Below, one piece after another: positions 6,905 to 8,410 of a DNA stretch of 33,453 nt. The position numbers and the translations under genes are program-made. A model generated the notes under the pieces. The model was given only the letters and a program-made list of their open reading frames with translations. It had not been told where the DNA came from and made no database searches. The stretch covers positions 1 to 33,453 of the forward strand of contig CANQCH010000002.1 of assembly GCA_947589165.1 (NCBI GenBank), read 5' to 3'. The first letter of the stretch is position 1; every line of letters begins with the position of its first letter. Source of the stretch: an uncultured Bacilli bacterium. Its GTDB lineage: Bacteria > Bacillota_I > Bacilli_A > RF39 > UBA660.

Positions 6905-8410
6905 TTAGATTGTTTTTTTCAACCGTAATAAATAAGCTTTACATTCGGGCATTTTACCTTCGCCAAATAATTTTTCCAAATAAGTAATAAAGCCATCAAT
7001 TTCATCTTTAATATAAGCTAAGTTTAATTGTTCAAATTTCCGGAGAATTTTATGGGCAATAAGGTAATCAATGCCAGCGATTTCATCTCCCCCACAAGCC
7101 ACATAAGCGGGTACAAAATCTTTTAATTGTTTAACAATCCGGTTACCAAAAGCTAACCGGAAGTGATCGATAACATAACGATCCATTTCTTTAATTTTAT
7201 TTAGGTTTTCTTCACTAACGGCATGTTCTTCGCTCGCTTTTGTAAATAAACTATCTAAATAACTATAGCTAATTTTAAAAGCATCAACTTTGGGTGCTTC
7301 AAATTCTTCGGCTTTATCATCAATCGCAATCGGCATGGCCCGGTCGTATACTTTATCGGTTATCATGAAAGTCGAGTCATCGTTATTAATGGTCCCAATA
7401 TACCACATATTTTCTGGTACTTTTAATTTACCTTCATCTAATTTAACGGGGTCATTTTCCCAAACGTTAGGTACTAATTCTACTACCCAGTCTTTTTTAT
7501 TTGGTAGTTCCAAAACGGATAACATTTCGGCGAAGTAATATTCAACCCGCGAAATATTCATTTCATCAAGTAAAGTGATATAAACTTCATCCGTATATTG
7601 CGCTTCATACATTTTGGTTAAAATTTCCGTTTCATTAAATCTTTTTGTAAATTCGTTGAAATAACCAAATATTTCGGTAGAATCACGCCATGAAGGTTGA
7701 ACGGAAGCAACGGTTGTTTCATTAGCAATTAAGGAACCAAAGGCATAAGCAAGTGATGTTTTCCCGGTTCCTGAAATACCTTCTAAAATGATTAATTTAT
7801 TGGAAGCAAATGAGGCAATAAATAATCTAATTAAATTAATATCGTAATATAAATGTAATTGACTAGCCGAATAATTTCGGAATAAATCACATAATTCTTC
7901 TAAGCTAAAATTATTTTCAATCTTTTCCGGTTGAAATTCTTTATATTTTTCATCAACATTACTAAGTTTAAAGAACCGACTTTCGCCTTCTTGTAAAGAA
8001 TTAACGGGATTACCGTTTTCATCTAATTCAATTTCCCCATTGGCATTAGTTAATTCGGCAATTTTATCATTTTGCCGTTTTAATTTTAAAACTTCGTTAT
8101 TTAAATTTTCAATTTCCTCAATTAATAAGTCTTCTTTATGGACATTCCGCCGATATCTTAAGTATGTCCGAATCGCCCGGGCAATACAAAAGAAAATAAA
8201 GGCGAACATCGCAACTAAAAAGATAATCGAAAAAATGAGAATAACTAAACCAACACCCGTTAGTTGATTTTTATAGTCATTAATAATTTCAATATACGTA
8301 ACAACATTAAACATTTTAAATAATCCCGCAAAAAAGGATTTAAAAATGCTTACCAAGCCATCAAAAAATGGCCCCATAAATTTCGTAAAAAATTCGCTAT
8401 AGACACTCAT
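6905..8410 (-). CDS. Gene B: membrane-anchored McrB-like (AAA_5, dynein-related) AAA+ NTPase with an N-terminal double TM region and a coiled coil
   Basis: I moved the start to the ATG at 8410 (MSVYSEFF). GGAGGA lies 7 nt upstream, and the ATG overlaps the gene A stop as TAATG. There are two hydrophobic segments (ORF-track aa 21-44 and 60-88), then RRNVHKEDLLIEEIENLNNEVLKLKRQNDKIAEL. Walker A is GISGTGKT (7757-7780) and Walker B is ITLLDEMN (7556-7579). Other motifs: VQPSWRDSTEIFGYFN, DEMNISRVEYYFAEMLSVLE, WYIGTINNDDST...DRA. This set is typical of McrB-family NTPases. Confidence 0.7.
   Translation of the reverse strand: MSVYSEFFTKFMGPFFDGLVSIFKSFFAGLFKMFNVVTYIEIINDYKNQLTGVGLVILIFSIIFLVAMFAFIFFCIARAIRTYLRYRRNVHKEDLLIEEIENLNNEVLKLKRQNDKIAELTNANGEIELDENGNPVNSLQEGESRFFKLSNVDEKYKEFQPEKIENNFSLEELCDLFRNYSASQLHLYYDINLIRLFIASFASNKLIILEGISGTGKTSLAYAFGSLIANETTVASVQPSWRDSTEIFGYFNEFTKRFNETEILTKMYEAQYTDEVYITLLDEMNISRVEYYFAEMLSVLELPNKKDWVVELVPNVWENDPVKLDEGKLKVPENMWYIGTINNDDSTFMITDKVYDRAMPIAIDDKAEEFEAPKVDAFKISYSYLDSLFTKASEEHAVSEENLNKIKEMDRYVIDHFRLAFGNRIVKQLKDFVPAYVACGGDEIAGIDYLIAHKILRKFEQLNLAYIKDEIDGFITYLEKLFGEGKMPECKAYLLRLKKTI

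What the first reader, a model, noticed from the sequence alone, without database searches (positions are those of the whole stretch)
6905..8410. McrB-family AAA+ NTPase whose DNA-binding N-domain is replaced by two TM helices and a coiled coil
Seen: hydrophobic stretches FMGPFFDGLVSIFKSFFAGLFKMF and GVGLVILIFSIIFLVAMFAFIFFCIARAI. These are followed by a basic stop-transfer sequence (RTYLRYRRNVHK) and a heptad-like segment (LLIEEIENLNNEVLKLKRQNDKIAEL). Then comes the AAA+ core with GISGTGKT, VQPSWRDSTEIFGYFN, LLDEMNISRVEYYFAEMLSVLE and IGTINNDDS...DRA.

Established: this motif set (Walker B DE-x-N, followed by the helical xVExYF...LSxxE segment and the IGT-x-N block) is characteristic of McrB/AAA_5 family NTPases. 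Those normally carry cytosolic DNA-recognition N-domains.

Inference: membrane tethering of the hexameric motor implies a substrate other than bulk DNA, or an activity gated at the membrane.
Basis: partly seen in the sequence, partly recalled or inferred. Interest (0 to 1): 0.72.

Follow-up and report, generated by a model that had tools for sequence, protein, structure and literature searches.

The report
Membrane-anchored McrB-like GTPase, no nuclease
This gene encodes a relative of the DNA-restriction motor McrB that is tethered to the cell membrane, has a partner with no nuclease, and sits in an operon with surface-protein genes, so it probably acts at the cell envelope rather than cutting DNA; the type was named in one paragraph of a 2024 paper and has never been studied.

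Summary
Window 6905..8410 (-) encodes a 501-aa protein with four parts:
- a weakly hydrophobic, Phe-rich first helix;
- one clear transmembrane helix followed by a basic cluster;
- a short heptad-like helix;
- an AAA+ core whose only significant match among solved structures is E. coli McrB. No MoxR or RavA structure matches.

The signature motif is the N-x-D variant. This is the McrB branch that Bell et al. 2024 (eLife) split into CoCoNuT and membrane-anchored 'CoCoPALM' systems.

The gene lies in a tight operon, A-B-C-D:
- A is a fast-evolving protein with a weak EAL-like fold.
- B is the gene in the finding.
- C has only the McrC N-terminal domain (DUF2357), with no nuclease.
- D is a membrane-anchored surface protein with Asp-rich repeats.

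B and C are adjacent in 78 of 83 related loci from gut Bacillota. In 62 of 84 loci (window included), SipW-type signal peptidases lie within 10 kb. The window has none in 33 kb.

B is nearly as conserved as ribosomal protein L32. In close relatives the operon lies inside or next to the cell-division and cell-wall (dcw) gene cluster.

Most likely this is a membrane-tethered GTPase module that controls or powers surface-protein maturation, not a restriction enzyme.

The parts
6905..8410 (-). Gene B: 501-aa membrane-anchored McrB-like (N-x-D branch) AAA+ GTPase. This is the gene in the finding.
   Evidence: ORF and start codon. McrB is the only significant solved-structure match. NCBIfam McrB 5.6e-8. 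PADLOC PDC-M26A 2.7e-39, on the AAA+ core only. All 8000 word-index candidates scored reached E <= 0.001; the exhaustive search found 8260 clusters at 50% identity.
8291..8398 (-). B residues ~5-40: Phe-rich, weakly hydrophobic amphipathic helix 1 (marginal TM or interfacial helix).
   Evidence: KD maximum 1.53, Wimley-White -5.5 kcal/mol, hydrophobic moment 0.45-0.5. 60% identity across 130 homologues.
8177..8254 (-). B residues ~53-78: definite transmembrane helix.
   Evidence: KD 3.21, Wimley-White -18.5 kcal/mol. All 120 close homologues have one strong TM helix here.
8051..8176 (-). B residues ~79-120: basic cluster (RAIRTYLRYRRNVHK) followed by a helix of about four heptads (short coiled-coil stalk).
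   Evidence: 5 K/R and 0 D/E in the 15 residues after the TM helix. Heptad register is about 5% versus shuffles. 73% identity across homologues.
7301..7795 (-). B residues ~206-370: AAA+ core. Walker A GISGTGKT is at 7757..7780, Walker B LLDEMN at 7556..7573, and the N-x-D signature (N342-N-D344) at 7379..7387.
   Evidence: Alignment to E. coli McrB. Invariant columns G211, G214, G216, K217, D282, N285, N342, D344, R357. D at N+2 in 260 of 261 family members with a motif match; the N+3 position varies D/E/Q/G/A.
8418..8424 (-). Shine-Dalgarno AAGGAGG, 7 nt upstream of ATG 8410. It lies inside the 3' end of gene A.
   Evidence: Read directly from the sequence.
8410..9486 (-). Gene A: 358-aa cytoplasmic protein, translationally coupled to B (TAATG overlap). 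It has an N-terminal helical domain plus a C-terminal alpha/beta domain with a weak EAL-like fold.
   Evidence: No Pfam, NCBIfam or PADLOC hit. AF2 pLDDT 91.2. The top ~30 Foldseek PDB hits are nearly all EAL domains, at E 4e-3 to 0.1 and TM 0.3-0.43. Homologous to the gene upstream of B in a second locus type (hhalign 98.8%, E 9.5e-17).
5798..6898 (-). Gene C: 366-aa (365 aa from the second ATG) McrC-N-terminal-domain (DUF2357) protein. It has no nuclease domain and a C-terminal helix of about 48 residues.
   Evidence: Pfam DUF2357 E 4.8e-13, 49.4 bits against a cut-off of 23.3. All 120 listed homologues carry PF09823. The C-terminal ~100 aa are poorly conserved and K/E-rich, with no D..(D/E)xK motif. 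AF2 predicts helix 317-364 and no alpha/beta nuclease fold, at pLDDT 68.5. Adjacent to B in 78 of 83 loci.
3718..5787 (-). Gene D: 689-aa bitopic membrane protein. It has a conserved ~95-aa cytoplasmic N-domain, one TM helix, extracellular Asp-rich DxDxDG repeats (402-bp tandem repeat, x2.8) and a C-terminal beta-rich domain.
   Evidence: TM helix at ~94-119. Present after C in 21 related loci plus the window, at 416-698 aa. Tandem repeat. Only compositional hits to the acidic repeat regions of the Clf/Sdr adhesin models.
1360..3615 (-). Gene E: 751-aa secreted or anchored protein. Its N-terminus (..FIGAAYAYFQAQ..) resembles SipW-dependent signal peptides. It is a possible accessory substrate with no full-length homologue in the 83 related loci.
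   Evidence: Sequence. The equivalent gene in L008 has IGATYAYFQAS and scores 18.0 bits on TIGR04088 against a cut-off of 19. E751 itself gives no hit.
9513..9541 (-). Promoter-like site (TTGCAA-17-TG-TATAAT) upstream of gene A.
   Evidence: Consensus scan only. The total number of such sites in the region is no higher than in shuffles.
9595..9614 (-). Terminator-like hairpin plus T-run just after rpmF (L32). It separates the operon from the upstream housekeeping genes.
   Evidence: Consensus scan.

Best explanation
Gene B is the motor subunit of a membrane-anchored McrBC derivative of the type Bell et al. 2024 called CoCoPALM. Here it occurs in a reduced four-gene form, A-B-C-D, with no adjacent signal peptidase.

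Shown:
- B has a McrB-type AAA+ core of the N-x-D branch.
- B has an N-terminal membrane anchor with a cytoplasm-facing basic cluster and a short helical stalk.
- C is a McrC N-terminal (DUF2357) protein with no nuclease.
- A, B, C and D are tightly packed, and A and B overlap.
- The B-C pair is conserved across hundreds of gut Bacillota species, next to membrane or secreted proteins and usually next to SipW-type signal peptidases.

Inferred, by analogy with the solved McrBC complexes:
- B forms a hexameric GTPase ring on the cytoplasmic face of the membrane, held there by six anchors and stalks.
- The highly conserved segment of C (residues ~57-135) inserts into the ring and stimulates GTP hydrolysis.
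- The long C-terminal helix of C pairs with the stalk or dimerises.

Inferred from context:
- The module couples GTP hydrolysis to the maturation, export, display or release of envelope proteins, not to DNA translocation and cleavage.
- In the window the likely target is D, and possibly E.
- In related loci the likely targets are sets of SipW-processed, TasA-like proteins.
- A is a regulatory or adaptor subunit, possibly nucleotide-sensing through a degenerate EAL-like fold.
For: McrB identity. PDB phmmer and profile searches hit only E. coli McrB. Invariant N342-x-D344 with a variable next residue (D/E/Q/G/A) matches the N-x-D definition in PMC11090510 section 7.

Membrane anchor and topology. 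84 of the 143 closest 50%-identity representatives have at least one strong N-terminal TM helix.

C is DUF2357 and nuclease-less.

Operon. TAATG overlap between A and B; gaps of 6 and 10 nt.

Conserved neighbourhoods. B-C adjacent in 78 of 83 loci; A-B-C-D in 21 related loci plus the window; S26 peptidases in 62 of 84 loci. Two of these peptidases score 78.8 and 97.5 bits on TIGR02228 (archaeal/SipW-type signal peptidase I), against a cut-off of 51.85. TIGR04088 SipW-type signal peptides are detected in 6 of 141 neighbouring proteins.

Not mobile and not defence-like:
- B is 80% identical where L32 is 87%.
- In relatives the operon lies within or beside mraZ-rsmH-ftsL-pbp ... spoVD-mraY-ftsW.
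- No full-length copy occurs in 72,556 plasmids or 50,697 phage records.

Bell et al. independently linked this clade to signal peptidases and 'pilus assembly'.
Against: - No experiment exists for any member, so function is inferred from context only.
- The window has no signal peptidase in 33 kb, and only 6 of the 22 A-B-C-D loci (window included) have one within 10 kb. The link to SipW substrates is therefore indirect for this variant.
- D and E are not recognised by any SipW-signal or TasA model.
- Neither McrB nor McrC is known to act on proteins.
- The C model is of low confidence (pLDDT 68.5) and finds no McrC structure by fold or by sequence.
- The EAL-like match for A is weak (E >= 4e-3, TM <= 0.43), and no catalytic or binding motif was identified.
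- GTP versus ATP specificity is untested.
Confidence: 0.6

Rival explanations
1. It is an anti-phage defence system, a Type IV-restriction or abortive-infection derivative. The membrane-tethered GTPase senses infection at the envelope and triggers a toxic effector, for example membrane damage through its own TM helices or through D.
For: B and C descend from McrBC. The AAA+ core matches PADLOC candidate PDC-M26A at 2.7e-39. Sister clades (CoCoNuTs) are predicted defence systems and occur on plasmids. A (40% identity) and D (repeat-length variation) evolve fast, as conflict genes do.
Against: - No nuclease or other recognisable effector is present.
- C, A and D give no PADLOC hit.
- B is nearly as conserved as a ribosomal protein.
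- In relatives the position inside the dcw cluster is stable, with no integrase or transposase nearby.
- No full-length copy occurs on plasmids or phages.
- The operon is consistently linked to signal peptidases and secreted proteins.
Confidence: 0.2
2. It is a cell-division or cell-wall accessory machine. The FtsB/DivIC-like TM plus coiled-coil anchor targets the GTPase to the divisome, which would explain its position in the dcw cluster.
For: In relatives at 77-92% identity the operon lies between pbp2B/ftsL and spoVD/mraY/ftsW. Bell et al. describe the N-domain as FtsB-homologous. DivIC (PF04977) gives sub-threshold hits in 3 of 10 family N-termini.
Against: - The DivIC hits are not significant (E 0.011-0.046), and the window protein gives none.
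- In FtsB/DivIC the coiled coil is extracytoplasmic, whereas here the positive-inside rule puts it in the cytoplasm.
- The more distant locus types (53% identity) are built around signal peptidases and secreted proteins, not division genes.
- In the window itself the upstream neighbours are mutL, yceD and rpmF.
Confidence: 0.12
3. It is a MoxR/RavA-type AAA+ chaperone (AAA_5) that matures a membrane or secreted partner and is unrelated to McrBC.
For: The Pfam hit is to the generic AAA_5 family, and only at E 0.002, below the gathering threshold.
Against: - No MoxR or RavA structure matches at E <= 1 with either the sequence or the profile, whereas McrB does.
- The McrB-specific helical insert and the N-x-D signature are invariant.
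- The partner is a DUF2357 (McrC N-domain) protein, not a VWA protein.
Confidence: 0.03

Closest known systems
[quoted passage not shown] 2024, eLife 13:RP94800 (PMC11090510, section 7)
   Same: - N-x-D-motif McrB-like GTPase.
- N-terminal TM helix plus coiled coil in place of a DNA-binding domain.
- McrC homologue reduced to DUF2357 plus a helical tail.
- Found in Bacillota.
- Relatives at ~53% identity carry SipW-type signal peptidases and several secreted proteins in the same locus.
   Different: - The window's operon is a four-gene A-B-C-D form with no signal peptidase in 33 kb.
- Its N-terminus shows no detectable DivIC/FtsB similarity.
- Protein A (EAL-like fold) and protein D (Asp-rich repeat surface protein) are not mentioned in the paper.
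- The paper gives one paragraph and defers analysis to a 'forthcoming publication', which I could not find.
E. coli McrBC (Type IV restriction; structures 6hz4, 6ut6, 7vsr)
   Same: AAA+ core with Walker A and B, the helical insert after Walker B, a sensor-1 Asn signature and an Arg finger. The partner carries the McrC N-terminal domain.
   Different: - No N-terminal DNA-binding domain; a membrane anchor instead.
- Signature N-x-D rather than N-x-x-D.
- The partner lacks the PD-(D/E)xK nuclease.
- The context is envelope genes, not restriction-modification.
CoCoNuT systems (CnuB/CnuC) and PADLOC candidate PDC-M26
   Same: Same N-x-D GTPase branch, with coiled-coil fusions and frequent loss of the McrC nuclease. 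The AAA+ core hits PDC-M26A at 2.7e-39.
   Different: CoCoNuT GTPases are soluble, with long coiled coils; the 59 TM-less representatives have a median of 452 aa before Walker A. They are always paired with HEPN or other nucleases. No nuclease is found here, and the other three proteins give no PADLOC hit.
SipW-TasA-TapA (B. subtilis) and SipW-BsaA-BsaB-BsaC (C. perfringens) matrix-fibre operons
   Same: Related loci combine SipW-type peptidases with several small secreted proteins that carry '..YAWF..'-type N-termini. C. perfringens BsaA polymers are membrane-anchored donor-strand-exchange fibres (PMC11580942).
   Different: Those operons contain no NTPase. No TasA or camelysin model hits any neighbour here. 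The window lacks SipW.
Degenerate-EAL c-di-GMP receptors that control surface structures (FimX for type IV pili; LapD for the LapA adhesin)
   Same: The best structural matches of protein A include the FimX and LapD EAL domains. A sits in an operon with a repeat-rich surface protein.
   Different: The similarity is weak (TM <= 0.43). There is no sequence-level EAL hit. No GGDEF, PilZ or c-di-GMP gene was seen in the window. This is a lead, not a finding.

Membership tests
McrB-family AAA+ GTPase (AAA_5 clade, McrB branch) | AAA+ core that matches McrB better than other AAA+ clades (MoxR/RavA, dynein) | tested here: met
   Only McrB among solved structures: 5.5e-7 with the sequence and 1.2e-5 with the profile. 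The next hit is at 0.17. NCBIfam McrB 5.6e-8, below the equivalog cut-off, so it is a homologue and not an orthologue.
McrB-family AAA+ GTPase (AAA_5 clade, McrB branch) | Signature motif after sensor 1: N-x-x-D (canonical) or the N-x-D variant | tested here: met
   N342 and D344 are invariant. The N+3 residue is D in 226, E in 29, Q in 3, G in 1 and A in 1, which makes this the N-x-D variant.
McrB-family AAA+ GTPase (AAA_5 clade, McrB branch) | GTP-specific hydrolysis stimulated by McrC | not testable with these tools
   This needs biochemistry.
McrBC Type IV restriction system | N-terminal DNA-binding specificity domain on McrB | tested here: not met
   Residues 1-145 form a membrane anchor, basic cluster, short helix and acidic linker. 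No DNA-binding domain hit was found.
McrBC Type IV restriction system | McrC with a C-terminal PD-(D/E)xK endonuclease | tested here: not met
   C matches only the DUF2357 N-domain. Its C-terminal 100 aa are variable, K/E-rich and helical, with no conserved acidic-Lys motif and no alpha/beta fold in the model.
CoCoPALM (Bell et al. 2024) | N-x-D McrB-like GTPase | tested here: met
   against the definition read.
CoCoPALM (Bell et al. 2024) | GTPase fused to an FtsB-like TM plus coiled-coil domain | tested here: inconclusive
   A TM helix and a ~4-heptad helix are present. Homology to FtsB/DivIC is not detectable for the window protein and is sub-threshold in 3 of 10 relatives. The predicted orientation (coil in the cytoplasm) is opposite to FtsB.
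CoCoPALM (Bell et al. 2024) | McrC homologue, usually with a coiled coil | tested here: met
   DUF2357 at 4.8e-13. Predicted 48-residue C-terminal helix. Adjacent to B in 78 of 83 loci.
CoCoPALM (Bell et al. 2024) | Association with signal-peptidase-family (pilus assembly) genes | tested here: not met
   No S26 peptidase in any frame of the 33-kb window: tblastn best E 0.4, family HMM best 4.1 bits. The feature is met in 62 of 84 loci overall but in only 6 of the 22 loci of the A-B-C-D type. The rest of the genome could not be checked.
CoCoNuT | Long soluble coiled coil on the GTPase, and an associated HEPN or other nuclease | tested here: not met
   The protein is membrane-anchored with a coil of only ~30 residues. 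No nuclease domain was found in A-D.
PADLOC PDC-M26 | All components of the candidate system present | tested here: not met
   Only the AAA+ core of B matches PDC-M26A (profile positions 314-436 of 724). C, A and D have no PADLOC hit.
EAL domain (for protein A) | EAL fold with metal and c-di-GMP binding residues | tested here: inconclusive
   Foldseek hits are consistently EAL but weak (E 4e-3 to 0.1, TM 0.3-0.43). No Pfam EAL hit. The invariant residues of the family do not map onto the EAL motifs by inspection.

The most novel reading that the evidence does not exclude
A McrBC-derived GTPase ring has been repurposed as a membrane-bound engine or switch for Gram-positive surface-protein biogenesis. 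It is tethered by a TM hairpin and stalk, plugged by a nuclease-less McrC remnant, and regulated by a degenerate EAL-like subunit. It would drive or gate the processing, export or polymerisation of SipW-type substrates; here the substrates would be the repeat-rich protein D and possibly E. If so, it is a previously unrecognised class of NTP-driven envelope machine. It is widespread in gut Bacillota with small genomes, and in this lineage it is embedded in the division and cell-wall gene cluster.
Probability: 0.35. Interest if true: 0.8.

Novelty: new variant of a known kind. Interest (0 to 1): 0.55.

Why it matters
McrBC is the textbook GTP-dependent restriction motor. A branch that has lost both its DNA-binding domain and its nuclease, gained a membrane anchor, and become a near-core gene would show that this motor has a function outside nucleic-acid conflict. 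The branch was detected in at least 593 GTDB species representatives of gut Bacillota. One orthologue of C is indexed in 1633 blocks of the assembly collection.

These organisms are mostly uncultured, have small genomes and are abundant in human and animal guts. An unknown envelope machine there could matter for colonisation, adhesion or biofilm formation.

The system is compact (four genes). Its parts can be tested directly: GTPase assay with and without C, topology mapping, c-di-GMP binding by A, and surface display of D.

Tried and rejected
1. MoxR/RavA assignment. Rejected: no such PDB hit at E <= 1.
2. Start at ATG 8434, or a soluble isoform. Rejected on the position of the ribosome-binding site, the homologue N-termini, and the absence of Met between residues 68 and 267.
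3. A nuclease in C. The sequence profile against PDB found nothing. Foldseek on the AF2 model gave only spurious TolC-like matches (TM 0.17). No conserved nuclease motif.
4. FtsB/DivIC homology of the N-terminus. Only sub-threshold hits in relatives.
5. TasA/camelysin or other known folds for the conserved neighbours. Pfam and NCBIfam scans of 141 proteins gave only 6 TIGR04088 hits, plus compositional hits of D to the Clf/Sdr adhesin models.
6. A SipW-type signal in the window's own D and E. Not detected.
7. A signal peptidase anywhere in the window. Absent.
8. Mobile-element carriage. Plasmid and phage searches found only the AAA+ core of distant relatives.
9. A follow-up paper on CoCoPALM or PDC-M26. 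None in the library.
10. Crude heptad statistics. Only about 5% versus shuffles, so the coiled coil rests mainly on conservation and pattern.
11. I did not model B itself.
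Full report
**1. What is there**

The finding lies on the minus strand. The ORF listing gives an ORF at 6905..8434. The sequence upstream of ATG 8410 reads ...ATGAAGGAGGAAGACTAATG. This places a perfect AAGGAGG 7 nt before ATG 8410, and that ATG overlaps the TAA stop of the upstream 358-aa gene. 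All close homologues are about 501 aa and start at the equivalent Met. The product is therefore 501 aa, from 8410 to 6905. There is no Met between residues 68 and 267, so no ATG-initiated soluble isoform could retain Walker A at residue 211.

The window is about 30% G+C and looks like a chromosomal stretch of a Bacillota genome. It carries PolC, DnaE, MutL, RecO, Era, YbeY, EF-P, a PBP, a sortase and YqfD. The closest relatives are uncultured gut Bacilli, deposited as 'Tenericutes', 'Bacilli bacterium' or Candidatus Onthocola.

**2. The N-terminal module**

- **TM helix.** Residues ~53-78 are an unambiguous TM helix (Kyte-Doolittle 3.21, Wimley-White octanol -18.5 kcal/mol). The next 15 residues hold 5 K/R and no acidic residue. 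By the positive-inside rule, everything C-terminal to this helix is cytoplasmic, as a nucleotide-hydrolysing domain requires.
- **First helix.** The first hydrophobic stretch (~7-40) is Phe-rich but carries Lys and Asp residues. Its KD maximum is 1.53, below the usual 1.6 cut-off; Wimley-White is -5.5 and the hydrophobic moment is 0.45-0.5. It is a marginal TM or an interfacial amphipathic helix.
- **Relatives with two TM helices.** In a second N-terminal subtype of the same family, the N-terminus is strongly K/R-rich (up to 10 K/R in 18-30 residues). It is followed by two strong TM helices separated by a neutral or acidic loop. That is a classical N-in/C-in hairpin, so a hairpin is the most economical reading for the window protein too.
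- **Coiled coil.** Residues ~90-120 carry hydrophobic residues at a/d positions for about four heptads, with an Asn at one 'a' position. A crude register test beats about 95% of shuffles.
- **Conservation.** Across 130 homologues the basic-plus-heptad region is the best-conserved part of the N-terminus: 73% identity, against 60% for helix 1 and 56% for the TM helix.

'One definite TM, one marginal helix, and a short coiled-coil-like stalk' is the accurate description.

**3. The AAA+ core**

The protein has Walker A GISGTGKT (211), Walker B LLDEMN (280), the helical insert RVEYYFAEMLSVLE, IGTINNDDS (338-346) and YDR (355-357). These residues are invariant or nearly so in a 27-member alignment that goes down to 32% identity.

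Against all PDB sequences, the only matches below E = 0.1 are three E. coli McrB entries. This holds for the single sequence (5.5e-7) and for the family profile (1.2e-5). Everything else is a P-loop-only match at E >= 0.17, and no MoxR or RavA entry appears. NCBIfam's McrB model hits at 5.6e-8, far below its equivalog cut-off. Pfam gives only a sub-threshold AAA_5 hit.

Bell et al. 2024 define a major McrB branch by a one-residue deletion that turns N-x-x-D into N-x-D, 'usually followed by E or a second D'. Of the 270 family members held (P0001-P0270), 261 gave a motif match. In 260 of these the residue two positions after the Asn is D. The next residue is D (226), E (29), Q (3), G (1) or A (1). 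The window protein therefore belongs to the N-x-D branch.

**4. The family**

An exhaustive HMMER search of 1.84 billion representatives found 8260 clusters at E <= 1e-3 and 743 at E <= 1e-30. The N-terminal architecture of the 143 evaluable clusters among the best 150 is:

| N-terminal region | Clusters | Median residues before Walker A |
|---|---|---|
| 1-2 strong TM helices | 43 | 205 |
| 3 or more TM helices | 41 | 320 |
| No TM helix | 59 | 452 |

The TM-less group has long N-termini and is presumably the coiled-coil CoCoNuT-like forms. This group explains the PADLOC PDC-M26A hit to the AAA+ core. Membrane anchoring is thus common around this protein and not a one-off.

**5. The operon and its relatives**

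*The four genes in the window*

- A (8410..9486) overlaps B by one base.
- C (5798..6898) starts 6 nt after B.
- D (3718..5787) starts 10 nt after C.
- A terminator-like hairpin follows rpmF, and a TTGCAA-17-TG-TATAAT site precedes A. These are consensus matches only.

*Protein C*

C matches Pfam DUF2357, the McrC N-terminal domain, at 4.8e-13, as do all 120 listed homologues. Residues 37-135 and 194-255 are nearly invariant. The last ~100 residues are variable, K/E-rich and predicted helical, with a 48-residue terminal helix. There is no conserved nuclease motif and no alpha/beta nuclease fold. The most conserved stretch (62-116) is disordered in the monomer model, as expected for a segment that folds only inside a partner ring. 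That last point is my inference.

*Neighbourhoods in other genomes*

I fetched 80 of these loci and clustered their ORFs. B and C are adjacent in 78 of 83 loci. Three locus types appear:

| Type | Gene content | Where found |
|---|---|---|
| i | A-B-C-D | 21 related loci plus the window; B 54-92% identical to the window |
| ii | A 12-gene locus with a homologue of A upstream of B (hhalign 98.8%, E 9.5e-17), two or three S26 peptidases and five families of small membrane-anchored or secreted proteins | Many loci at ~52-54% identity |
| iii | S26 immediately upstream of B, and a C of 700+ aa | Clostridia |

In type ii, two of the peptidases exceed the TIGR02228 (archaeal/SipW-type signal peptidase I) cut-off, scoring 78.8 and 97.5 bits against 51.85. 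The secreted families have N-termini such as ..SYAWFTAN....AWFIY.. and ..SYAKY... Six of 141 of them hit TIGR04088, the SipW-dependent signal-peptide model.

This is exactly the association for which Bell et al. coined 'CoCoPALM'. They describe a GTPase fused to an FtsB-like TM plus coiled-coil domain, coiled coils on both subunits, and signal-peptidase-family 'pilus assembly' neighbours. They deferred any analysis, and I found no later paper.

**6. How the window differs**

The window has no S26 peptidase in any of six frames over 33 kb: tblastn best E 0.4, and a family HMM scores at best 4.1 bits. Only 6 of the 22 A-B-C-D loci (window included) have one within 10 kb. A 79%-identical relative (L009) has one directly after D.

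D has several recognisable parts:
- a conserved ~95-residue cytoplasmic N-domain;
- one TM helix followed by ..ATYSGVQY..;
- an extracellular run of DxDxDG-type, Cys-paired acidic repeats;
- a beta-rich C-terminal domain.

The repeats are encoded by a 402-bp unit present 2.8 times. This accounts for D lengths of 416-698 aa among relatives.

The next gene, E (751 aa), has no full-length homologue in the other loci, but it begins ..FIGAAYAYFQAQ... The gene after D in L008 begins ..IGATYAYFQAS.. and scores 18.0 bits on TIGR04088, against a cut-off of 19. E itself gives no hit.

A DivIC/FtsB relationship of the N-terminus of B could not be shown. Three of 10 relatives give sub-threshold hits and the window protein gives none. 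The predicted orientation is the reverse of FtsB.

**7. Protein A**

A has no family hit and evolves fast: it is 40% identical where B is 80%. The AF2 model is confident (pLDDT 91.2, pTM 0.88). It shows a seven-helix N-domain and a C-terminal alternating beta/alpha domain. The top ~30 Foldseek matches in the PDB are almost all EAL domains (MorA, Bd1971, FimX, LapD, RbdA), but they are weak: E 4e-3 to 0.1, TM 0.3-0.43. I treat this as a degenerate EAL-like fold and as a lead only. No EAL motif is recognisable.

**8. Defence or envelope?**

Points against a defence role:
- Between the window and L001, B is 80% identical while ribosomal protein L32 is 87%, C is 54%, D is 62% and A is 40%.
- In relatives at 77-92% identity the operon sits inside or beside the dcw cluster: mraZ-rsmH-ftsL-pbp2B-(2 genes)-A-B-C-D-...-spoVD-mraY-ftsW.
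- The C orthologue of one such species is indexed in 1633 blocks of the assembly collection, on contigs of more than 1 Mb.
- No plasmid or phage record holds a full-length copy. Only AAA+ cores of distant, soluble relatives are found.
- No nuclease, DNA-binding domain, methyltransferase, integrase or transposase is associated with the operon.

Points for a defence role:
- descent from McrBC;
- the PADLOC core hit;
- the fast evolution of A and D.

I rate an envelope or surface-protein function as more likely than defence, but nothing here is experimental.

**9. Mechanism proposed**

The steps are marked as shown or inferred in the Best explanation section. In outline:
- B forms a hexameric GTPase ring at the inner face of the membrane.
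- C plugs and activates the ring through its conserved segment.
- The C-terminal helix of C and the stalk of B provide coiled-coil contacts.
- A acts as a regulatory subunit.
- The output is control or powering of the maturation, display or polymerisation of membrane-anchored secreted proteins: D and possibly E in the window, and SipW substrates in relatives.

**10. Verdict**

The architecture is already named (CoCoPALM) but is essentially undescribed and uncharacterised. The window carries a reduced variant without the adjacent signal peptidase that gives the kind its name, so I file it as a new variant of a known kind. Interest is moderate to good. The finding would not surprise the authors of the 2024 census, but it is a compact, testable example of a restriction motor apparently repurposed for the cell envelope.

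Noticed in passing
window 4252..5377 (within gene D, 3718..5787 -): A 402-bp tandem repeat (2.4-2.8 copies, 76-80% matches) encodes the Asp-rich DxDxDG / C-x3-C repeats of D. D homologues range from 416 to 698 aa, so copy number varies between close relatives. The + strand ORFs listed at 4136-5221 are antisense artefacts of this repeat.
   Followed up: partly
window 8410..9486 (-), gene A: This uncharacterised 358-aa protein has a confident AF2 model. Its C-terminal half repeatedly matches EAL (c-di-GMP phosphodiesterase or receptor) domains such as FimX and LapD, though weakly and with no EAL sequence motif. It may be a degenerate nucleotide-sensing subunit.
   Followed up: partly
L084/L085 2540..21089; L086 8303..11282; L001 3048..6809: In the closest relatives the A-B-C-D operon is embedded in or adjacent to the division and cell-wall (dcw) cluster: mraZ, rsmH, ftsL, pbp2B upstream; spoVD-like PBP, mraY, ftsW downstream. 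In the window the upstream neighbours are instead rpmF, yceD and mutL, so the region has been rearranged.
   Followed up: partly
window 1360..3615 (-), gene E: This 751-aa protein has no full-length homologue in the 83 related loci. It has a signal-anchor ending ..AAYAYFQAQ.., like SipW-type signals. By eye, its C-terminal half looks like a glycoside-hydrolase-like TIM barrel; this was not tested. It sits between D and the conserved 93-aa and 288-aa genes.
   Followed up: partly
window 1024..1305 (-) and 150..1016 (+): A 93-aa multi-TM protein (holin-like by eye) and a divergently oriented 288-aa protein with no family hit recur downstream of D in the closest relatives (L004, L005, L006, L086, L087). 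It is unknown whether they belong to the system.
   Followed up: no
representative proteins P0162-P0262: 41 of the 143 closest representative clusters of this GTPase carry 3 or more (by the lower-threshold listing, typically 4-6) N-terminal TM helices instead of 1-2. This is a polytopic membrane domain fused to a McrB-like core, which I did not see mentioned in the 2024 paper.
   Followed up: no
L030, L033, L035, L048, L059, L064, L071, L072, L077, L081 (gene after B): In Clostridia-type loci the DUF2357 partner is 680-870 aa, about twice the length of the window's C. It carries an unexamined extra domain and is flanked by very large (1400-2400 aa) proteins.
   Followed up: no
window 22887..24785 (-): A sortase gene lies next to a 305-aa protein with a divergent InlB B-repeat (Flg_new_2), about 14 kb from the operon. 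This is a separate surface-protein anchoring module.
   Followed up: no
window 10260..12053 and 12013..12933 (-): As called from its first in-frame start (TTG), the mutL ORF overlaps the upstream YqeH/RsgA-like GTPase gene by 41 nt. The true mutL start is probably further downstream.
   Followed up: no
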